Source: Chloroflexota bacterium (GTDB lineage: Bacteria; Chloroflexota; UBA11872; UBA12225; JAJDUF01). From it: a DNA stretch of 64,000 nucleotides. The translations under genes were made by a program, and so were the position numbers. Positions within the stretch are counted from its first letter, which is position 1, and every line of letters begins with the position of its first letter. The notes under the pieces were generated by a model. That model was not told the DNA's origin. It worked only from the letters and a program-made list of their open reading frames with translations, and made no database searches. Where the stretch lies: the NCBI GenBank assembly GCA_965238265.1, contig OZ250185.1, forward strand, positions 4,081,031-4,145,030, in the 5' to 3' direction. Shown in pieces: positions 16,717-46,012 of the stretch.

Positions 16717-16772
16717 TATTGCACCTACCCCCCGGCCCCTTCCCTTCAGGGAGAGGGGTGGGGGTAGGTATC
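16717..16772. repeat. palindromic repeat, family D-like
   Basis: attgcacctaccccccggccccttcccttcagggagaggggtgggggtaggtatc. It overlaps the last codons of the cca ORF. Confidence 0.75.
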
Positions 16773-27025: not shown

Positions 27026-27769
27026 ATGGAGCTGAAGGGAAAAGTCGCGCTGGTCACGGGCGCCAGCCGGGGGATCGGTGAGGAGATCGCGCTGGGCTAT
27101 GCGCGCGCTGGCGCACACGTCGTCCTCACGGCCCGCGACGAGGAGCGGCTACAGGCGGTCGCCGCACAGGTTGAAGCCGCCGGCGGGGTCAGCAGCATCT
27201 TCCGGCTGGACGTTACCGAGTACGCGGAGGTCGGCCGCGTCGTCAACCGGACGATCCGTGAGCTGGGACGGATTGACGTGCTGTGCAATAACGCCGGCAT
27301 CAATCTTGCCAACGGCCCGGTCGCCGAGATACCCCCGGAACGGTTCGCCGCTGTGTTCGCGGTCAACACCGTGGGGCTGTATGCCTGCTGCTATGCCGTG
27401 CTGCCCCACATGATCGGGCAGGGCTACGGGCGGATCGTCAACGTCAGCTCGGCCTCCGCCTTCATGTGCCAAGCCGGGAGCGCCGCCTACGCCGGCTCGA
27501 AGGCCGCGGTCAATGCCCTGACTGCCGCGCTGGCGAAAGAGGTACAGGAGCATGGCGTGCTGGTCAATGCCATGAGTCCAGGCGCGGTACGCACGGACAT
27601 GAACCCTACCGCGGCCACCCACCCGGTCGAGGCGGTGCCCACGGCGCTCTGGCTCGCCGCGCTGCCGGCCGGAGGGCCAACGGGCCGGTTCTACCGCTTC
27701 ATGGAAGAGCTTCCGATGCTGCCGGAGCACGATGCTGATTTCATGGCCGGCCCTACCGGATCGCGTTAG
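27026..27769 (+). CDS. short-chain dehydrogenase/reductase (SDR)
   Basis: TGASRGIG cofactor motif, NNAG, and the catalytic S...YAGSKAA (YxxxK). Confidence 0.9.
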   Translation: MELKGKVALVTGASRGIGEEIALGYARAGAHVVLTARDEERLQAVAAQVEAAGGVSSIFRLDVTEYAEVGRVVNRTIRELGRIDVLCNNAGINLANGPVAEIPPERFAAVFAVNTVGLYACCYAVLPHMIGQGYGRIVNVSSASAFMCQAGSAAYAGSKAAVNALTAALAKEVQEHGVLVNAMSPGAVRTDMNPTAATHPVEAVPTALWLAALPAGGPTGRFYRFMEELPMLPEHDADFMAGPTGSR

Positions 27770-29133
27770 CCTTGGTCGGCCGGCACCCAGCGGTAGGAGT
27801 AGAGGCTCGCATTGCGGAGATGGAGCTTCAGGTGGACACGCCCACCGGCCTGCGGGGGGACCACCCTCCCACCGCGCCATGCTACGGCCACCGCTACTCC
27901 ATCCGGCGCGGACAGCCGGCAATCATCGGCGCTATACCCGGCAACCGCCTGACCGTCGGGGCGTAGTACCTCGACACTGGCGTCTCCCGTCCCCGCATCG
28001 AGATTGACCGTCAGGCGGCGGGGCGTAGTGGCATCGAGGGCCGCGGTGAGGAGGAAGCCTGGCTCCATCCGCCCTTCGATGGAGACAAAGCCGTCGCGCC
28101 GGATGGAGGCCAGGCCCATCGCCCGACGATGCCCGCCTTTCGAGCCGTGGTGGGTGCTGCCGCCCGCGTACCAGAAGCGCAAGCGGTCGCCGACGACCTC
28201 CGGCGCATTATTGGTCAGCACAACCCAATGGGAGTCCCAGCTTCCTTCGCCGCCACGCGCGAGAATGGGATCGCGGTGTCCCACGCGCTGCCAGTGGTGG
28301 CCATCGCGGCTCCAGCCGAGCTGCGTATCCATGCGCTCTACAGCCCGGTGGTAGACCTCCAGAAAACCGATGATGCCGGGACCGTAGCGCAGCGGGAGCA
28401 TGCTATAGAACTCGGTGTTGGGCCGGTCGTGCTCGTCAGTCCGCAACAGCTGGCCCCGGTAGGACCACGTGCGGAAATCGGCGCTCTCCCAAAGGGACAC
28501 CTCCCGCTGTCGGAGCACGCCGACGGCGCTGGCCCGCCGGGTGGTCAGCATCCACAACCGGCGCACCGGGTCGTAGGCGATGGCGTAGCGGTCGCCGGCA
28601 TGAACTACCGGCTCCGCACCGACCGTCCAATGGATGCCGTCCGGGGAGGCTGCCCGGTAGATACCCCGCTGCTGGGGGCCGCCGCCCTGATACAGCGTGG
28701 CCACAAACCGCTCGCCCGGCGCCGCGCCCGGCATATCGAGGTAGGGGAACAGCAGCCGCGCCCTGGTACCACGGGGCAGGCCCACGATGTTGGTGGGCGA
28801 GCCATCCTCGTGGCGCACCACGTCGAGGGCCGGCTTTTCCCAGCTGACGCCATCGGGCGAGGTCGCGTAGCCGATCCCATAACGATAGGGGGACGGATCG
28901 TTGGTGGTCGCGGCCAGATACCAGCATTTATAGAGTCCGTCGGCCGGGTCGTGGAGGATACGCCGGGGCACAACCTGCCCCATCTCCCAGGGCTGATCGG
29001 GCCGCAGCACCGGCTCCAGGGAATCGCGGCGTAGCTGGTTGATGAGCCGCGTCACGCCGACCATGGAGTCGATCTCCTCATCGCCTAGAAAGAGATGCAG
29101 GTGGGGGTCGGCCAAGTCTGCCGACGTAGACAT
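27766..29133 (-). CDS. beta-propeller glycosidase-like protein with C-terminal beta-sandwich (paralog B)
   Basis: GYATSPDGVSWEKP, then LTVNLDAG..ASVEVLRPDGQAVAGYSADDC...VAWRGG...GRVHLKLHLRNASLYSYRW, colinear with 21022..22527. The start at 29133 follows AGGAGG. Confidence 0.65.
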   Translation of the reverse strand: MSTSADLADPHLHLFLGDEEIDSMVGVTRLINQLRRDSLEPVLRPDQPWEMGQVVPRRILHDPADGLYKCWYLAATTNDPSPYRYGIGYATSPDGVSWEKPALDVVRHEDGSPTNIVGLPRGTRARLLFPYLDMPGAAPGERFVATLYQGGGPQQRGIYRAASPDGIHWTVGAEPVVHAGDRYAIAYDPVRRLWMLTTRRASAVGVLRQREVSLWESADFRTWSYRGQLLRTDEHDRPNTEFYSMLPLRYGPGIIGFLEVYHRAVERMDTQLGWSRDGHHWQRVGHRDPILARGGEGSWDSHWVVLTNNAPEVVGDRLRFWYAGGSTHHGSKGGHRRAMGLASIRRDGFVSIEGRMEPGFLLTAALDATTPRRLTVNLDAGTGDASVEVLRPDGQAVAGYSADDCRLSAPDGVAVAVAWRGGRVVPPQAGGRVHLKLHLRNASLYSYRWVPADQG

Positions 29134-29219
29134 ACCACGTCCTCCTTGCTGCAGACGCAAACGAGGGGCTGCTGCCGGCGCCCCGGCAACAGCCCCTCGA
29201 TACAAGAGCAACTTACCGC

Positions 29220-30788
29220 TTAGAGCTTGGCCTGCAACACGTCCGACGTGGGGTGCAGCGTCCGCAGCCCGGCGATCAGCTTATTGAGGCGGTCGGCCTC
29301 CTGCGCCGCGTTCACATAAGAAATCTCGCCGGCCCACACCTTGTTGATGACGGGCCGCCACGCGCGGGCCATGGGGTACCACCACTCGTGCGCCTGATGC
29401 ACGTAGCGGTAGTTGAACCCATCCATCAGGATGTCCCGCCGGAAGGTATCGGACGGAATGTTGCGATCCGAGTCGAACAGTGCCTTCCAGGTCGGCGGGG
29501 TGTTGCCATGGGTCAGGATGATGTCGCTGGTCTCCGGGCCGGCCAGGTGGGCGGCCAACTCGGCGCTCTCGGCGACGACACCACGGGTGCCGGCCCACTT
29601 GGTGACCATGTGCGCCTGATCCTGCTGGGACACGGCCCGCTCGCCGTTCGCCGGCCATTTCGGCGCGTACATGAAGTCGAACTCGAAGTTCGTGCCGACG
29701 GCCTTGCGGAACGCGGCGCTCGGATACGTGATGAAGAAAGCGTAGTTGCCCTTGGCGGTACTGAGCTTCTTCTCGCTCGCTACCTGTGGTGTCGGCGCGA
29801 CCTGGTGCTTGTGGACGATGTCTTCCCAGAACTGGCCGGCCTGAATCCCGGCGGGCGAATTGAAGAGGTAGTACTCGCCGTTATGGGCACCCGTGTCACC
29901 GCCGATCTGGTACATCGTCATGACATGGTTCCACCAAGCGGGTGCGGGCATCCCGTAGATATTGTTGTCCGGCTCCTGGACCTGCCTGGCCGCGTTGATT
30001 AGGTCGTCGAAGGTCCAGTTCTCGTTCGGCTCGATGCCGTGCCGGTCGAGGATGGACTTGTTGTACATCCAGTCACGGGTAATCACCTGGAACGGCCAGC
30101 CGAAGACCTTCCCGTTCGGATACGGGTAGATCTCGTGCTGCGGGATGCTCACATAGTCATCCATCGCGACCTTGAATTGCTTCAGGTAGGGGGTCAGGTC
30201 CGCGAAGAGACCGCGCTTCGCCCAGTAGACGAAGACATACGCGGCCCACAGGAAGAGGTCGCCCATGTCGTCGGCCGCGATCAGCACCGCCGTCCGCGCG
30301 AAGACACTGTTGCTCTTGGCCTGCTCACGGCCAGCGCTAAAGCGCACGTCTACCGTAACTTCGGGGCGCTGCTCCTTGTAGAGCGCCAGGCTGCGCTTGA
30401 CCACCTCACCACGCGGCCCGTCCGGCCCCCAGTCGGTGTCGAAGAGGATCCGCTTCGGGCCGCTCGACGTGACGGGCACCTCCACCACCTTCTCGACCAC
30501 CTTCTCGACGACAACCGGCTTCTCGACGGTGACCACCTTCTCGACCACCTTCTCGACAACGACCGGCTTCTCCTTCTCGACCACAATGGTCTGACCGGCG
30601 GCCCCGGACGACCCCTTGGCCCCGGCGGAGCCAGCGGCACCCTGCGCACCCTGCACGCCAGCGGGTCCAGCCGGTCCCGCCGGGCCTTGGACGTAGCGAA
30701 TCTCGACTTCACCACAAGCAGCTGCGAGTACGCCCCCCAGCGTTGCGGCTGCGCCACCGAGATACCGTCTGCGGATCACACGTGCCAT
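29220..30788 (-). CDS. extracellular solute-binding lipoprotein (ABC sugar-type SBP) with a long repetitive N-terminal tether
   Basis: Start at 30788 after AAGGAG. Tat-like RRRYLGG plus lipobox LAAAC, then GPAGPAGPAGVQGAQGAAGSAGAKGSSGAAG (Gly-X-Y) and (V)VEKVV repeats, then a family-1 SBP-like body. No permease or ATPase genes are adjacent. Confidence 0.8.
   Translation of the reverse strand: MARVIRRRYLGGAAATLGGVLAAACGEVEIRYVQGPAGPAGPAGVQGAQGAAGSAGAKGSSGAAGQTIVVEKEKPVVVEKVVEKVVTVEKPVVVEKVVEKVVEVPVTSSGPKRILFDTDWGPDGPRGEVVKRSLALYKEQRPEVTVDVRFSAGREQAKSNSVFARTAVLIAADDMGDLFLWAAYVFVYWAKRGLFADLTPYLKQFKVAMDDYVSIPQHEIYPYPNGKVFGWPFQVITRDWMYNKSILDRHGIEPNENWTFDDLINAARQVQEPDNNIYGMPAPAWWNHVMTMYQIGGDTGAHNGEYYLFNSPAGIQAGQFWEDIVHKHQVAPTPQVASEKKLSTAKGNYAFFITYPSAAFRKAVGTNFEFDFMYAPKWPANGERAVSQQDQAHMVTKWAGTRGVVAESAELAAHLAGPETSDIILTHGNTPPTWKALFDSDRNIPSDTFRRDILMDGFNYRYVHQAHEWWYPMARAWRPVINKVWAGEISYVNAAQEADRLNKLIAGLRTLHPTSDVLQAKL
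30470..30590. repeat. coding tandem repeat (VVEKVVEK... tether) in the SBP gene
   Basis: accaccttctcgaccaccttctcgac(g/a)acaaccggcttctc is duplicated in tandem, with a Gly-X-Y-coding stretch directly adjacent (about 30595..30700). Confidence 0.75.
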
Positions 30789-30883
30789 AGCACCCTCCTT
30801 CGGGTTTACCCTGCTCGGTTCACATCTCCTATGAGCGAGGGTCGCGGTCATGCTACACCAATGTCCGGCAGGGAGGCAAACGC

Positions 30884-30911
30884 TTGTCCTGCTTCTGGGA
30901 GAGAGTATAGT
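30884..30911 (+). promoter_or_regulatory. putative sigma70-like promoter feeding the double-HEPN gene
   Basis: TTGTCC (30884..30889), a 16-nt spacer, then TATAGT (30906..30911). The -10 lies inside the left copy of the direct repeat, which corresponds to the -10 region of the GNAT gene. Confidence 0.3.
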
Positions 30912-30946
30912 TGCCCCATACTGCTGCGTGGGGAGCGTGCCGCGCT
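30904..30946 (+). repeat. direct repeat, left copy (degenerate duplicate of the GNAT gene 5' end)
   Basis: AGTATAGTTGCCCCATACTGCTGCGTGGGGAGCGTGCCGCGCT against 32279..32321 AGTATAGTTGTCCCATGCTGCTGCGCGGAGAGCGTGTCGTGCT: 37 of 43 nt identical by my count. In the left copy the ATG is ATA and a TAG follows. Confidence 0.85.
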
Positions 30947-30972
30947 AGACGCGCGAGAAAGGGCAGTGGGGG

Positions 30973-32208
30973 ATGAACACGCCGGATGATTTGACCTTCA
31001 GGGGGTTGGAGGCAAAGCGAAAGGGCCTGGTCGACGATGGTGAGTTCGGTACGTTTTCGTCTGCCCTCGGACTTCGCCCTCGGCGTTGCACCAGTTGGCT
31101 GGAGCGTGCCGAGCGGGAGATGGAGAAAGACCGTCCTGACCACGATGCTGCGTTCATCTTCTACTGGATCGCGTTCAACGCCGCTTATGAAGAAAGCCGG
31201 ACGGGGGCATGCCTGGGGGAAGAAGATAAGAAAAGAAGAGATGTTCTTTTCGACGAAATCATCGCGCTAGACCGCTACGATAAGGTCAGCAATGCAATCC
31301 CAATGAAGTGCAAGGACCCCATCATGGAATTCCTGGACAACAAGTACGTCTTCCAACTCTTCTGGGCGAGGTACAAAAACTGGGAAGAAACTTTGGAAAG
31401 AGAACGAGATGAAGTGGATAGAGCACCACTACTATGGCGTGCAGAGGAACATACCAAAAAGACTCTAAGTATACTATTCGACCGTCTGTACGTGCTGCGT
31501 AATCAGCTTATCCACGGGGGTGCGACTTGGAAGGGTTCGATGAACCGTGAACAGGTCATTTCCGGAGCGCGGACCACGGCCTCCCTGGTCACGCTGTTTA
31601 CCGAACTGATGATGGACAATCCGGACACTGAGCGCGCTCTGCGTTGTCTCAGTTGGCGCGAGCGTGCCGATCAAGAGATGGCGAGGCAAGAACCTGACTA
31701 CGATGCCGCGTTTATTTTCTACTGGATTGCGTTCAACGCCGCCTACGCATGGGGCCGGGGGGAAAGGCGATCTCACCGACCATCACCCCAAGTAGCGGCC
31801 GCTCGCGACGGGTATTTCGGCAAGATCATCAAGCTAGATGACCGCGGGAAGGTCTATGACGTGATCCACGGCAACGAGTACGTCTCCCAACTGCTCAGGA
31901 GTGACCACCAAGGATTGTCAAGGTACAGATACCGGCAATCTCGGTCGCGAGGCGGCCATAGCGTACACGAATCACCCAATGATCAGTATACCAGGCGCAT
32001 TCTATCCCGACTACGCCGACTATTCGACTACCTATATAGTCGGCGCAATCAGCTTATTCATGGTAGCGCGACTTGGAATGACCTGGAAAATCGCGTCCGG
32101 AGCGAGGCCGATGCGCGGATTCTGTCTTCCCTAGTTCCGCTGTTTATTGACTTGATGATGGACAAACCGATGGCTGACTGGGGTGATCCACCCTACCCCG
32201 CCGCGTAG
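30973..32208 (+). CDS. tandem double-HEPN-like protein (two Rx4H motifs in one chain); predicted single-chain RNase, family unassigned
   Basis: 411 aa made of two internal repeats (about residues 38-218 and 222-400). Each has ...ERA..EM....D(H/Y)DAAFIFYWIAFNAAY and then (L/R)RNQLIHG(G/S)ATW: R176-H181 at 31498..31515 and R358-H363 at 32044..32061. The gene is AT-richer than its flanks (27-32 G+C per 60 nt in 31201..31380). Confidence 0.75.
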   Translation: MNTPDDLTFRGLEAKRKGLVDDGEFGTFSSALGLRPRRCTSWLERAEREMEKDRPDHDAAFIFYWIAFNAAYEESRTGACLGEEDKKRRDVLFDEIIALDRYDKVSNAIPMKCKDPIMEFLDNKYVFQLFWARYKNWEETLERERDEVDRAPLLWRAEEHTKKTLSILFDRLYVLRNQLIHGGATWKGSMNREQVISGARTTASLVTLFTELMMDNPDTERALRCLSWRERADQEMARQEPDYDAAFIFYWIAFNAAYAWGRGERRSHRPSPQVAAARDGYFGKIIKLDDRGKVYDVIHGNEYVSQLLRSDHQGLSRYRYRQSRSRGGHSVHESPNDQYTRRILSRLRRLFDYLYSRRNQLIHGSATWNDLENRVRSEADARILSSLVPLFIDLMMDKPMADWGDPPYPAA

Positions 32209-32278
32209 CCACATAGCAAGCGCCCGTGAGTAGCGGGCGGCGACGCAGGGAGCGTGATAGTTGCCACCGGGGCCGTGC

Positions 32279-32321
32279 AGTATAGTTGTCCCATGCTGCT
32301 GCGCGGAGAGCGTGTCGTGCT
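32279..32321 (+). repeat. direct repeat, right copy (functional 5' end of the GNAT gene)
   Basis: See 30904..30946. A further partial copy, gggagcgtgatagttgccacc, lies at 32248..32268 (compare gggagagagtatagttgcccc at 30897..30917). Confidence 0.85.
32281..32293 (+). promoter_or_regulatory. putative -10 box placed for a leaderless GNAT transcript
   Basis: TATAGT at 32281..32286. The A of the ATG at 32293 is the 7th nt downstream and there is no SD, a geometry typical of leaderless mRNAs. Confidence 0.3.
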
Positions 32322-32838
32322 GCGTGAGGCCCGGACGAGGGATCGGGCCGAGCTGGAGCGGCTACGGGCGGACCCTGAGATTGACCGTTACATGGGGGTG
32401 GACGCCGCGCCGGAGGGGTCCATCTTGAATCGCGTCTTCGTAGGATCAGCCAGCGGCGCATTGGCCGACTATGTGCTCCAACGTCCGGCGGGCCGGATCA
32501 TCGGGCTGCTCTCGTTCTGGGAACGAGCCGTGCCCCACCACGCCGCCGAGGTGTCCATCTGGCTGGCCCGCGACTATCGCGGCCGCGGCTACGGCACGGA
32601 TGCCCTAATCCTGGGCCTCCGGCACGTCTTCGAGCGCTTCCGCTTACATAAGATTTACCTGCGGGTGCTGTGGTACAACACGGCGGCTATCCGCTGCTAC
32701 GAACGCTGCGGTTTTCGCAAAGAAGGAGTGCTGCGTCAGGAGATGTGCGTCGAGGGCATGTGGCATGACCTCATCTATATGGGCGTGCTGCGCTCCGAGT
32801 TCGACGCGCCTTCATCCGGCGGGGCGGGGAAGTCGTAG
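32293..32838 (+). CDS. GNAT-family N-acetyltransferase (RimJ/RimL-like)
   Basis: MLLRGERVVLREARTRDRAELERLRADPEI... and RGRGYGTDAL (acetyl-CoA Q/RxxGxG/A motif) ...RCYERCGFRKEG. The ATG at 32293 is preferred over the ORF-track start at 32254. Confidence 0.85.
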   Translation: MLLRGERVVLREARTRDRAELERLRADPEIDRYMGVDAAPEGSILNRVFVGSASGALADYVLQRPAGRIIGLLSFWERAVPHHAAEVSIWLARDYRGRGYGTDALILGLRHVFERFRLHKIYLRVLWYNTAAIRCYERCGFRKEGVLRQEMCVEGMWHDLIYMGVLRSEFDAPSSGGAGKS

Positions 32839-32850
32839 GCAGGTCGGTAT

Positions 32851-32956
32851 TGGACCTATCCCCCGGCCCCTTCCCTCCAGGGAAGGGGAGTCATCGAGGC
32901 GGTGAGCGTGGCGCGGGGTAGCCGCTTCCCTGTCAGGAAGGGGGTGGGGGTAGGTA
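32851..32956. repeat. palindromic composite repeat, family D
   Basis: ttggacctatcccccggccccttccctccagggaaggggagtcatcgaggcgg...cttccctgtcaggaagggggtgggggtaggtatc, colinear with 8679..8772. Confidence 0.85.
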
Positions 32957-32987
32957 TCGTGGCCCGTAGCGATAGTAGGCAAGCACC

Positions 32988-34097
32988 ATGCGCGTCCTGA
33001 TGGTTTCCAAAGCCTGCATCCACGGCGCCTACCAGCGCAAGCTGGAGGCGCTGGCCCGCTGCGGCGCCGAGCTGACCGTCGTGGTGCCGCCCTCCTGGCG
33101 CGATCACGGCGGGCAAGTGTTCCCCCTCGACCGCCGGCATACGCAAGGCTATCGCCTGGTGGTCGAGCCGCTGGTACTCAACGGCCATTTTCACACCCAC
33201 TTCTACCCGCGGCTCGGTCGCCACTTTCGCGGCGAGCGGTGGGACGTGGTCCACGCCGACGAAGAGCCGTATAACCTCGCCACGCTCCAGATCATCGCGC
33301 TCGCGCAGCGCGCCGGCGCTCGTGCCCTGTTCTTTACCTGGCAGAACCTACTCCGCCGTTATCCGCTGCCGGTACGGCTGATGGAGCGCTACTGCTATCG
33401 CCGGGTCGCCGGCGCCATTGCCGGCAACGCCGAGGCGCGGACCGTGCTCCGCCGCAAAGGCTACGCCGGGCCGGCGTGGGTCATCCCGCAGTTCGGCGTT
33501 GATCCGGAGCTATTCTCCGCCCACGCGGCGCCGCGCCCCACCGCGAACGGCAGCTTCCGTGTCGGCTACGTCGGCCGCCTGGAGCACAAGAAGGGCATAC
33601 ACCTGCTGGTGGCGGCGTGTGGCCAGCTCGGTAAGGGCATCCGGCTCGACCTGCTGGGCTGGGGACCGGAAGAGCGCCGGCTGCGGGCGCTGGCCGCAGC
33701 GTCCGGTCTGGCCGAGCGGTTGCATATCCACACCGCCCGCGCTTCGACGGAGGTACCGGCGTTCCTCCGCCAGCTCGACGTGCTGGTGCTGCCGTCACTG
33801 ACCACGCCGCAATGGAAAGAGCAGTTCGGGCGCGTCCTGGTGGAAGCGATGGCCTGTGAAACGGCGGTGATCGGGTCCGACTCGGGGGAAATCCGGCGCG
33901 TGATCGGTGACGCCGGCCTGCTCTTCCCGGAGGGCAACAGCGCTGCGCTCGCGGAGCAGCTGGCCCGGCTGCGTGACGACCCGGCGCTGCGGCAGGAGCT
34001 AGGAGCGCGGGGGCGGCAGCGCGTACTGGCACACTACACGCAGCAGCGCATCGCCGAGCGGACCTGGCGGGCCTACCGGGCCATCACTGATCGGTGA
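32988..34097 (+). CDS. glycosyltransferase family 4 (GT-B)
   Basis: MRVLMVSKA..., GRLEHKKGIHLL, and the E-x7-E region EQFGRVLVEAMACETAVIGSDSGEI. Confidence 0.9.
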   Translation: MRVLMVSKACIHGAYQRKLEALARCGAELTVVVPPSWRDHGGQVFPLDRRHTQGYRLVVEPLVLNGHFHTHFYPRLGRHFRGERWDVVHADEEPYNLATLQIIALAQRAGARALFFTWQNLLRRYPLPVRLMERYCYRRVAGAIAGNAEARTVLRRKGYAGPAWVIPQFGVDPELFSAHAAPRPTANGSFRVGYVGRLEHKKGIHLLVAACGQLGKGIRLDLLGWGPEERRLRALAAASGLAERLHIHTARASTEVPAFLRQLDVLVLPSLTTPQWKEQFGRVLVEAMACETAVIGSDSGEIRRVIGDAGLLFPEGNSAALAEQLARLRDDPALRQELGARGRQRVLAHYTQQRIAERTWRAYRAITDR

Positions 34098-45864: not shown

Positions 45865-46012
45865 TTGGACCTCACCCCCGGCCCCTTCCCTACCAGGGAA
45901 GGGGAGTCATGGCGGCGCCCGGCGGGAGTAGCCGCCGTAGGGGCAACCCTCGTGGCTGCCCTCGCCAGCACCTCAGCCGCGGTGAGGGCGCCCACAAGGG
46001 ACGCCCCTACAG
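45865..46012. repeat. composite repeat, families D and F
   Basis: ttggacctcacccccggccccttccctaccagggaaggggagtcatggcggcg ... gcgcccacaagggacgcccctacagg. Confidence 0.8.

What the first reader, a model, noticed from the sequence alone, without database searches (positions are those of the whole stretch)
30884..32330. The double-HEPN gene is a 1.3-kb insertion bounded by direct repeats that duplicate the 5' end (and -10 box) of the GNAT gene
Seen: 30904..30946 and 32279..32321 are direct repeats, 37/43 nt identical. The right copy contains TATAGT, 6 nt, and the GNAT start ATG (MLLRGERVVL...). The left copy has the same TATAGT, but the ATG has become ATA, its frame reads ILLRGERAAL-stop, and the double-HEPN ATG follows 55 nt later. 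A third partial copy (32248..32268) lies just before the right repeat. There is no transposase, integrase or inverted-repeat terminus. Inference: the cassette landed in, or recombined at, the very start of an apparently leaderless GNAT gene and duplicated its promoter-proximal 40-60 bp. The HEPN gene would then be driven by the captured original promoter (TTGTCC-16-TATAGT, 30884..30911) while the GNAT keeps a regenerated start. This is an unusual recombinase-free footprint for acquiring a putative toxin gene. It also makes HEPN and GNAT potentially co-regulated, so a functional pairing cannot be excluded.
Basis: partly seen in the sequence, partly recalled or inferred. Interest (0 to 1): 0.7.

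Follow-up and report, generated by a model that had tools for sequence, protein, structure and literature searches.

The report
Old HEPN insertion with duplicated promoter
A putative RNA-cutting (HEPN) gene sits upstream of an acetyltransferase gene behind a 43-base copy of that gene's promoter and start; the arrangement is old and shared by related Chloroflexota, and the HEPN gene itself is swapped between lineages as very divergent alleles.

Summary
30904-30946 and 32279-32321 are 37/43 identical. The right copy carries TATAGT-N6-ATG of the GNAT gene; the left copy has ATA in place of ATG, 55 nt before the HEPN start. This is not a recent insertion of a double-HEPN gene. Thirteen syntenic Chloroflexota loci carry a HEPN gene here, and each has exactly both repeat copies. 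Two HEPN-less relatives have only the right copy. The repeat occurs nowhere else in the sequence examined. Most relatives have a single-domain HEPN of about 235 aa. The 411-aa protein in the window is one allele class made by an internal tandem duplication, and a second, independent fusion exists in L018. HEPN alleles do not follow the flank phylogeny: L001 and L009 have 98.6% identical flanks, yet one carries a single and the other a double HEPN, with HEPN dS about 1.1 against 0.04-0.14 in the flanks. dN/dS is 0.2-0.45, so old alleles are shuffled by homologous recombination between conserved arms that end at the repeats. The left repeat is more conserved than synonymous sites, which fits a captured promoter and 5'UTR. 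A HEPN-GNAT functional pairing is not supported. How the duplication arose remains unresolved.

The parts
30884..30911 (+). Promoter-like site TTGTCC-16-TATAGT upstream of the HEPN gene. The -10 box lies inside the left repeat.
   Evidence: It is the only sigma-70-type match in 30700-33100. A TTGnnn hexamer 16 nt from TATAGT is present in 6 of the 10 aligned HEPN-bearing loci. The transcription start at 30918 is inferred, not mapped.
30904..30946 (+). Left repeat (R1): a non-coding copy of the GNAT -10 box, start position and first 9-10 codons, with ATG changed to ATA at 30918.
   Evidence: D4, 37/43. It is present in all 13 HEPN-bearing loci and absent from both HEPN-less loci. Mean pairwise identity is 0.92, against 0.78 at 4-fold sites.
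30918..30972 (+). Inferred 55-nt 5'UTR of the HEPN gene. It contains a small GC hairpin and the conserved sequence GAAAGGGCAGTGGGG before the ATG.
   Evidence: Alignment of 10 loci and folds (z-scores not significant). The hairpin is deleted in L004, L017 and L018. There is no Rfam match.
30973..32208 (+). Double-HEPN ORF of 411 aa. Domain 1 spans 30973-31632 and domain 2 spans 31633-32208. The RNQLIH (Rx4H) motifs are at 31498-31515 and 32044-32061.
   Evidence: ORF. Internal direct repeats of period 534-558 nt at 74-77% identity (D1-D5). Motifs. R176, Q178, H181 and G183 are invariant in 86 homologues. AF2 gives pLDDT 86.4, pTM 0.87, all-alpha. Weak HEPN_RiboL-PSP and HEPN_Apea hits. GC is 0.55 and GC3 is 0.62, against GC3 0.79-0.85 in the flanking genes.
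30950..32245 (+). Variable cassette: the segment whose identity to close relatives collapses. It is bounded by conserved arms that end at R1 on the left and at the sequence just upstream of R2 on the right. The boundaries are approximate.
   Evidence: Sliding identity for W vs L001 and for L001 vs L009. dS contrast between HEPN and flanks.
32248..32268 (+). It supplies TTGCCA 14 nt upstream of the GNAT -10 box. Its homology to the repeat is weak.
   Evidence: It is conserved as GATCGTTGCC in relatives, including the HEPN-less L002, and is absent from L007. Upstream alignment is no better than shuffles.
32279..32321 (+). Right repeat (R2): the GNAT -10 box (TATAGT, 32281-32286), 6 nt, the ATG at 32293 and codons 1-10.
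   Evidence: It is present in all 15 syntenic loci.
32293..32838 (+). GNAT N-acetyltransferase gene (181 aa), probably leaderless.
   Evidence: Pfam Acetyltransf_3, 1.9e-21, with profile position 1 at residue 7. No Shine-Dalgarno sequence before the ATG. The upstream GTG at 32254 is out of frame in L005 and missing in L007.
29220..30851 (-). Divergently transcribed solute-binding protein gene. It forms the left conserved arm of the locus.
   Evidence: Pfam SBP_bac_1. 87-95% aa identity in all syntenic loci.

Best explanation
In the common ancestor of this Chloroflexota lineage, a stand-alone single-domain HEPN gene became fixed between the solute-binding-protein gene and a probably leaderless GNAT gene. 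A 42-43 bp segment of the GNAT gene was duplicated with it. That segment runs from 2 nt before the -10 box to about +28, covering the -10 box, the start position and the first 9-10 codons.

The upstream copy (R1) lost its ATG (now ATA). It now serves as the -10 box and the 5' end of the HEPN transcript, using a -35 hexamer that lies upstream of R1, between the SBP start and the repeat. The downstream copy (R2) keeps the GNAT start intact.

Since then the HEPN ORF has behaved as an allelic cassette. Deeply diverged alleles persist in the lineage and are moved between genomes by homologous recombination. The crossovers fall in the conserved arms: SBP plus R1 and 5'UTR on the left, and the R2-proximal spacer plus GNAT on the right.

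The window carries one allele class in which residues about 35-220 were duplicated in tandem. This gives a covalent two-HEPN protein with both Rx4H motifs intact.

Inferred, not shown: the protein is an RNase whose active site forms between two HEPN domains. The fusion would therefore replace a homodimer, and the gene would serve in conflict or defence.

Shown: the repeat, its strict co-occurrence with HEPN, its age, the allele incongruence, the dS excess, and the two independent fusions.

Inferred: promoter use, leaderless GNAT translation, RNase activity, defence role.
For: Repeat and anatomy.

Synteny: 15 related loci share up481-SBP-[HEPN]-GNAT-GT4.

Co-occurrence: R1 is present in 13 of 13 HEPN-bearing loci and 0 of 2 HEPN-less loci. 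R2 is present in 15 of 15. There are no other copies, and none next to HEPN homologues elsewhere.

Age: R1 copies cluster with each other and R2 copies with each other. ATA is shared by most R1 copies.

R1 conservation: 0.92, against 0.78 at 4-fold sites and 0.685 in the upstream intergenic region.

Single origin at the locus: all same-locus HEPNs form one clade within a family of more than 2000 members. The three extra members of that clade that I looked up are at the same locus.

Incongruence with the flanks:
- Double alleles occur in both flank clades, and so do single alleles.
- L001 and L009 flanks are 98.6% identical, with 1 kb at 100%. Identity collapses from the HEPN ATG to just before R2.
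- HEPN dS is 0.45-1.17, against 0.04-0.46 in the flanks of the same pairs. dN/dS is 0.21-0.44.

Fusions: the five sequenced W-type double alleles share one junction. L018 has a different junction.

HEPN assignment:
- R-N-Q-x-x-H is invariant.
- The confident model is all-alpha.
- 10 of 86 members hit HEPN_RiboL-PSP, best E 2.5e-5, and 2 hit HEPN_Apea.
- The motif matches the ApeA structure 9hxl.
- One source names a homologue 'HEPN domain-containing protein'.

Defence-like neighbourhoods of distant homologues: SIR2_2; AAA_15/AAA_21 ATPase with Lit and Uma2; a Type ISP restriction enzyme; a MNT-HepT toxin-antitoxin pair.

Composition: low GC3 in every allele.
Against: - No transcription data exist, so both start sites and the leaderless status of GNAT are unproven. 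Only 5 of 49 long ORFs in the window show a -10-like hexamer 5-8 nt before a start codon.
- The R2 -10 box has only a poorly spaced -35 (14 nt), and no terminator separates HEPN from GNAT. GNAT could therefore also be read through from the HEPN promoter.
- Neither HEPN-less locus is a clean empty site, so the direction and mechanism of the original event cannot be reconstructed.
- HEPN membership rests on a motif and sub-threshold profile hits. Foldseek against the PDB found nothing significant. PADLOC and NCBIfam gave nothing.
- The trees are NJ, midpoint-rooted and without bootstrap or outgroup.
- Several loci come from low-coverage long-read assemblies with likely frameshift errors (L010 at 6x, L018 at 1.5x).
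Confidence: 0.7

Rival explanations
1. Recent, recombinase-free insertion of a 1.3-kb double-HEPN cassette into the start of the GNAT gene in this genome.
For: The direct repeats flank the gene. The GC content dips to 0.49-0.56. No recombinase is nearby. A relative without HEPN exists (L002).
Against: The same two-repeat arrangement occurs in 13 genomes whose flanks differ by up to about 11%. R1 and R2 had already diverged before those genomes split. The ancestral and most common form is a single HEPN of about 0.7 kb. The double form arose by internal duplication.
Confidence: 0.03
2. R1 and R2 are attL and attR of a decayed integrative element. That element would have entered the 5' end of GNAT by site-specific recombination, carrying a replacement promoter and start, much as phages that integrate into genes or tRNAs regenerate their target. 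Only the HEPN cargo survives.
For: The 43-bp direct repeats regenerate an intact target gene. The cargo has foreign composition. R1 and HEPN are gained or lost together. HEPN homologues elsewhere sit in defence or toxin-antitoxin islands.
Against: No integrase or remnant of one lies within about 5-10 kb in any locus. The sequence upstream of R2 would be element-derived under this model, yet it is present in HEPN-less L002, joined directly to the left flank. HEPN homologues elsewhere carry no such repeat.
Confidence: 0.12
3. The HEPN divergence arose in place, by rapid positive selection on a vertically inherited gene, not by exchange of old alleles.
For: All same-locus HEPNs form one clade. 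HEPN dN/dS (0.21-0.44) is in most pairs higher than that of the flanking genes (mostly 0.02-0.26).
Against: Synonymous divergence is also 1.2 to 25 times that of the flanks. dN/dS stays below 1. Genomes with 98.6% identical flanks carry a single versus a double HEPN. W's allele is closest to that of L008, which lies in the other flank clade.
Confidence: 0.08
4. HEPN and GNAT form a functional two-gene module, toxin-antidote or co-effector, co-regulated through the duplicated promoter and 5' segment.
For: The two genes are adjacent on the same strand with no terminator between them. They share a 43-nt promoter-proximal sequence that is conserved even where it is non-coding. The arrangement is kept in 13 genomes.
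Against: GNAT is retained intact in L002 and L007 without HEPN. The five HEPN homologues examined outside this locus have no GNAT neighbour. GNAT clades do not follow HEPN allele types. GNAT evolves like its neighbouring housekeeping-type genes.
Confidence: 0.07

Closest known systems
ApeA, a single-protein HEPN anti-phage system (PDB 9hxl; bioRxiv 10.64898/2026.01.26.701840)
   Same: Both are HEPN genes that act alone, without a partner gene. The catalytic-helix motif is very similar: LYxxRNxxxHGG, aligned. Homologues of the window protein lie in defence and toxin-antitoxin neighbourhoods. According to the abstract of that paper, ApeA cleaves host tRNA anticodon loops.
   Different: ApeA has a roughly 300-aa beta-rich N-terminal domain (PMC3710099) and forms large ring oligomers with a ligand pocket. 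The protein here is all-alpha, about 230 aa per domain, with its own conserved DAAFIFYWIAFNA motif. The sequence match to ApeA is not significant (E 0.44). Only 2 of 86 members touch HEPN_Apea.
RiboL-PSP-HEPN family (Pfam PF18735)
   Same: It is the best profile match. 10 of 86 family members hit it, best E 2.5e-5, over the C-terminal half that carries the Rx4H helix.
   Different: The window protein scores 17.5 bits against a 28.4-bit cut-off. Most members do not match at all.
Two-HEPN effectors such as Cas13, and HEPN homodimers such as HepT and Csm6
   Same: From general knowledge of the superfamily, HEPN RNases build one active site from two Rx4-6H motifs. The tandem protein here keeps both motifs and is predicted as one compact unit (pTM 0.87). 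Two independent fusions exist at this locus.
   Different: No CRISPR array, CARF domain or MNT partner is present. The fusion is a recent in-family duplication and is not an ancient architecture.
Integrative elements that regenerate their target gene (duplicated gene end at attL/attR)
   Same: Direct repeats flank the cargo, one copy keeps the target gene intact, and the cargo has foreign composition.
   Different: No integrase is present. The duplicated piece is a 5' end with its promoter, not the usual 3' end. The HEPN-less relatives do not show a clean attB.
Variable defence-gene hotspots between conserved core genes
   Same: The flanks are conserved and the content is variable or absent. 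Replacement occurs by recombination in the flanks.
   Different: The content is always the same gene family, a monophyletic set of alleles, or nothing. There is no changing mix of different systems.

Membership tests
HEPN superfamily | Rx4-6H catalytic motif on a conserved helix | tested here: met
   RNQLIH occurs at residues 176-181 and 358-363. R, Q, H and the following G are invariant in 86 homologues.
HEPN superfamily | All-alpha helical-bundle fold | tested here: inconclusive
   The AF2 model is entirely helical and confident (pLDDT 86.4). Foldseek found no significant PDB match, so the fold was not tied to a solved HEPN structure.
HEPN superfamily | Significant match to a curated HEPN profile | tested here: inconclusive
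   The window protein is below the cut-off (17.5 vs 28.4 bits). 10 of 86 relatives hit HEPN_RiboL-PSP down to 2.5e-5. NCBIfam gave nothing.
HEPN superfamily | Metal-independent RNase activity | not testable with these tools
   Needs biochemistry.
ApeA defence system | ApeA N-terminal beta-rich domain plus an Apea-type HEPN | tested here: not met
   There is no N-terminal beta domain; the model is all helices. HEPN_Apea was hit by only 2 of 86 members. PADLOC returned no ApeA hit, only a sub-threshold CARF2--CARF_HEPN match (E 0.019).
HepT/MntA (type VII) toxin-antitoxin | Adjacent MNT nucleotidyltransferase antitoxin | tested here: not met
   No MNT gene is adjacent in any of 15 syntenic loci or in four of the five other contexts. 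L021 has a separate MNT-HepT pair nearby, but that is a different HEPN family.
Transposon or IS-type insertion | Transposase and terminal inverted repeats with a short target-site duplication | tested here: not met
   No transposase. Inverted repeats are only chance-level and not terminal. The direct repeat is 43 bp, far longer than usual target duplications.
Site-specific integrative element | Integrase gene, and a clean empty site with one att copy in relatives | tested here: not met
   No integrase was found. L002 and L007 have one repeat, but their junctions do not match a simple attB.
Integron gene cassette | attC site and a nearby IntI/attI platform | tested here: not met
   No integrase and no imperfect-palindrome attC at the 3' end. 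The gene has its own promoter-like site.
Leaderless gene (the GNAT gene) | -10 box placed so that transcription starts at the A of the ATG; no Shine-Dalgarno sequence | tested here: met
   TATAGT-N6-ATG is conserved in 15 of 15 loci. There is no SD. The alternative GTG start is not conserved in frame. The transcription start itself is not testable here.

The most novel reading that the evidence does not exclude
The duplicated 43-bp promoter and 5' segment is a shared control element that couples a hypervariable HEPN RNase to the neighbouring GNAT. Together they would form a previously undescribed two-gene conflict module, with the acetyltransferase acting as antidote or co-effector.
Probability: 0.07. 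Interest if true: 0.65.

Novelty: new member of a known kind. Interest (0 to 1): 0.42.

Why it matters
The locus gives a dated, multi-genome example of how a horizontally acquired toxin-like gene obtains expression signals in a high-GC Chloroflexota lineage. It does so by copying the -10 box and start region of the neighbouring, probably leaderless, gene, with the start codon then inactivated. It also shows a solo HEPN gene kept as deeply diverged alleles that are exchanged across species-level lineages. This pattern is typical of immunity genes but poorly documented outside model bacteria. Two independent fusions to a covalent two-HEPN protein bear on how two-HEPN effectors arise. The family has more than 2000 members, no Pfam model and no studied representative, so it is a reasonable candidate for a defence or toxicity screen.

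Tried and rejected
- A metagenome-contig scan with the GNAT protein found no orthologous locus.
- Foldseek of the 411-aa model against the PDB gave no match with E below 0.5.
- NCBIfam gave no hit for the HEPN protein and PADLOC only one sub-threshold match (CARF2--CARF_HEPN, E 0.019). Rfam gave nothing in 30600-33100.
- I tested whether the repeat extends to the -35 region or further into the 5'UTR. The alignment scores equal those of shuffles.
- I tested the idea of a structured 5'UTR. A small hairpin has one compensatory change (L003), but the folds are not better than shuffles. The hairpin is deleted in L004, L017 and L018, so I did not pursue it.
- I considered whether L002's 21-nt in-frame tandem duplication at the GNAT start is a scar of R1 x R2 deletion. 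Its first unit matches R2 better (16/21) than R1 (13/21), and its upstream sequence is of R2 type. It is therefore an independent slippage event.
- A literature search for hypervariable or balancing-selected HEPN loci returned nothing relevant.
- SBP values for pairs involving L011 come from an out-of-frame extraction and were ignored.
Full report
**Observation.**

The repeat finder reports 30904-30946 and 32279-32321 as a two-copy direct repeat, 86% identical (37/43), 1375 nt apart (D4).

- The right copy (R2) holds TATAGT (32281-32286), six bases, and the ATG at 32293 of a 181-aa GNAT acetyltransferase. Pfam Acetyltransf_3 matches at 1.9e-21, with the profile starting at residue 7.
- The left copy (R1) holds TATAGT (30906-30911), six bases, and ATA at 30918. 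The ATG of a 411-aa ORF follows at 30973.
- A 16-mer of the repeat with up to 3 mismatches occurs only at these two places in 64 kb, against 0.26 expected.
- TTGTCC-16-TATAGT (30884-30911) is the only sigma-70-type match in 30700-33100. No terminator-like site was found there.

Two details need correction. The R1 frame does not stop after ILLRGERAAL; it runs on to a TGA at 30987-30989. The 'third copy' at 32248-32268 is a 10-13 nt resemblance with no statistical support.

**The HEPN gene.**

The ORF is an internal tandem repeat. Five blocks repeat at a period of 534-558 nt with 74-77% identity (D1-D5). This gives two domains, residues 1-220 and 221-411, each with RNQLIH.

The family has 2089 homologues at E <= 0.001. 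Nearly all are 226-260 aa, and none has a precomputed Pfam domain. One is named 'HEPN domain-containing protein' by NCBI.

- In an 86-sequence alignment R176, Q178, H181 and G183 are invariant.
- Pfam support is weak: the window protein scores 17.5 bits for HEPN_RiboL-PSP against a 28.4-bit cut-off. 10 of 86 members hit that family (best 2.5e-5), and 2 hit HEPN_Apea.
- A profile search of PDB sequences aligns the catalytic helix with ApeA (9hxl) at a non-significant E of 0.44.
- AlphaFold2 gives a confident all-helical model (pLDDT 86.4, pTM 0.87). Foldseek finds no PDB relative.

I therefore place it in the HEPN superfamily on motif and weak profile evidence, outside any curated family.

**Relatives.**

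A genome scan with the GNAT protein returned seven Chloroflexota MAG loci with the same gene order: up481 (the 481-aa ORF at 27766-29211 on the minus strand, no family assigned), SBP, X, GNAT, GT4. Look-ups of HEPN homologues added L008-L011 and L017-L019 at the same locus.

- Thirteen loci (including the window) carry a HEPN gene at X.
- L002 has 147 nt between SBP and GNAT.
- L007 has about 600 nt of repeat-rich non-coding filler.

A census with a 30-mer (up to 7 substitutions) gave a clean result. Every HEPN-bearing locus has exactly R1 and R2. Both HEPN-less loci have R2 only. HEPN homologues in other genomic contexts (L012-L015) have neither, and there is no further copy anywhere in the window or the loci. 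The repeat is therefore not a dispersed family, and R1 travels with HEPN.

**Age.**

In the alignments, R1 copies resemble each other (ATA, GGGGAACGTGTCGCGC) and R2 copies resemble each other (ATG, GGAGAGCGGGTGGTGCTG). The duplication therefore predates the split of these genomes, whose flanks differ by up to about 11%.

Most alleles are single-domain, 228-245 aa. The five sequenced doubles of the window's type (W, L008, L009, L010/P0005, P0003) share one junction...LMMDNPxTE|RAxRC..., which indicates one duplication event. L018 has a different fusion, in which a complete second copy follows the full C-terminal tail. That is a second, independent event, although the contig has only 1.5x coverage.

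The '1.3-kb insertion' is thus an old insertion of roughly 0.7-0.85 kb, enlarged later.

**Allele exchange.**

All same-locus HEPNs form one clade within the family. Within that clade they do not follow the flanks.

- Flank trees give clade A (W, L001, L009, L010, L011), clade B (L003-L008), and L002 on its own. Double alleles occur in A and B, and single alleles occur in both.
- L001 and L009 are 98.6% identical across up481+SBP, with about 1 kb at 100%. L001 has a single HEPN and L009 a double.
- Identity between L001 and L009 falls from 93-96% in R1 to 0-70% from the HEPN ATG onward. It returns to 93-98% just before R2.
- For that pair, dS is 0.04-0.14 in up481, SBP and GT4 and 0.23 in GNAT, but 1.09 in HEPN.
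- Across twelve pairs, HEPN dS is 0.45-1.17 against 0.04-0.46 in the flanks. HEPN dN/dS is 0.21-0.44.

The excess synonymous divergence, combined with purifying selection, rules out in-place acceleration. It indicates old alleles moved by homologous recombination whose crossovers lie in the conserved arms. In window coordinates the variable segment is about 30950-32245.

All alleles keep GC about 0.55 and GC3 0.62-0.72, against GC3 0.79-0.90 in neighbouring genes.

**Function of the repeat.**

R1 is non-coding. Its mean pairwise identity among ten genomes is 0.92. This compares with 0.76-0.79 at 4-fold sites of the four flanking genes and 0.685 in the intergenic DNA just upstream. That points to constraint, most simply as the -10 box and transcript start of the HEPN gene.

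The ATG-to-ATA change would stop leaderless initiation on that transcript. It is shared by most alleles, with ACA in L004 and GTA in L006 and L018.

For GNAT, three observations make a leaderless start plausible:
- the spacing TATAGT-N6-ATG is conserved in 15 of 15 loci;
- there is no Shine-Dalgarno sequence;
- the upstream GTG is not conserved in frame (out of frame in L005, absent in L007).

This architecture is not common in the window: 5 of 49 long ORFs show it. No start site has been mapped. The R2 -10 box has only a 14-nt-spaced TTGCCA, and no terminator follows HEPN, so read-through into GNAT is possible.

**Origin of the duplication.**

The homology is limited to about 42 nt, from 2 nt before the -10 box to +28.

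L007 is nested in clade B and keeps the left-flank bases that precede R1, so it is a secondary loss or replacement. L002 joins the left flank (…CCTCG) directly to the sequence that lies upstream of R2 in occupied loci. That fits either an imprecise deletion or an insertion of [11 nt + R1 + UTR + HEPN + tail] 38 nt upstream of the GNAT ATG.

L002's position in the tree is unresolved, and no outgroup was obtained. I cannot decide between three origins:
- a tandem duplication followed by insertion;
- integration of an element that carried a replacement gene start;
- a later copy of the promoter.

The region is prone to slippage. L002 has an independent 21-nt in-frame tandem duplication of R2-type sequence.

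**HEPN and GNAT as a pair.**

The evidence is against this.
- GNAT is intact without HEPN in L002 and L007.
- The five homologues examined outside the locus have no GNAT neighbour.
- GNAT clades do not follow HEPN allele types.

Four of those five outside contexts contain defence or toxin-antitoxin genes: SIR2_2; an AAA_15/AAA_21 ATPase with Lit and Uma2; a Type ISP restriction enzyme; and a MNT-HepT pair with DUF433 genes. This supports a conflict-related role by association only.

**Comparison with known systems.**

The nearest functional analogue is ApeA, a single-protein HEPN defence that cuts tRNA anticodon loops (bioRxiv 10.64898/2026.01.26.701840). The protein here lacks ApeA's N-terminal domain (PMC3710099) and does not pass the membership tests. 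It is not a HepT/MntA pair, an integron cassette or a transposon.

The locus resembles a defence hotspot between core genes, except that its content is always alleles of one family.

**Verdict.**

It is a new, uncharacterised member of the HEPN kind in an unusual but explicable setting, and of moderate interest.

Noticed in passing
L018:1731-3040: A second, independent tandem HEPN fusion. The second copy begins with a complete N-terminus after the full C-terminal tail of the first (…YYPLVPEPVPVNRPR|MAAWDERTYEGLEAER…), unlike the junction in the window. The contig has 1.5x coverage and the ORF is interrupted, probably by assembly errors.
   Followed up: partly
L002:7980-8040: The HEPN-less relative has a 21-nt in-frame tandem duplication at the GNAT start (MLLHREQ-VLLQGERMVL). 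Both units are of R2 type. The native sequence has an internal TGCTGCGGG..AG repeat 21 nt apart that would favour slippage.
   Followed up: partly
L007:7470-7980; window 32861-32891, 16730-16760, 45876-45906: A palindromic element, CCCCGGCCCCTTCCCT-loop-AGGGAAGGGGAG, occurs at several places in the window, including the GNAT-GT4 spacer. Together with a second repeated unit (CCCCGTATCGGGGTACGGGACATGCTT), it makes up the filler that replaces HEPN in L007. It looks like a REP-like dispersed repeat family.
   Followed up: partly
window 32840-32985 (GNAT-GT4 spacer): This spacer is an indel hotspot. Identity to close relatives drops to 0-40% here while both neighbouring genes stay above 85%.
   Followed up: no
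window 30400-30700 (SBP N-terminal region, minus strand): The solute-binding protein has a collagen-like G-x-y stretch and VVEK(V) repeats after its signal region (weak Pfam Collagen hit). This part is less conserved than the rest of the gene.
   Followed up: no
window 30936-30958 and the same position in L001, L003, L005, L006, L008-L011, L019: A small GC hairpin lies in the HEPN 5'UTR, with one compensatory change in L003 (CGTGCG/CGCACG versus CGCGCG/CGCGCG). It is deleted in L004, L017 and L018. Folding energies are no better than shuffles.
   Followed up: partly
L011:5550-6512; L010:7950-9194: Other rearrangements occur next to the locus. In L011, an IS110-family transposase follows GNAT where GT4 normally lies. 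In L010, an nSTAND1/AAA ATPase gene is inserted after GT4.
   Followed up: no
L010:4937-6710: Both HEPN and GNAT appear frameshifted in this 6x-coverage long-read contig. This is probably assembly error, not pseudogenisation.
   Followed up: no
L013, L014/L015, L020, L021: Distant members of this HEPN family lie beside SIR2_2, an AAA_15/AAA_21 ATPase with Lit and Uma2, a Type ISP restriction-modification enzyme, and a MNT-HepT pair with DUF433 genes. These are defence or toxin-antitoxin-rich neighbourhoods.
   Followed up: partly
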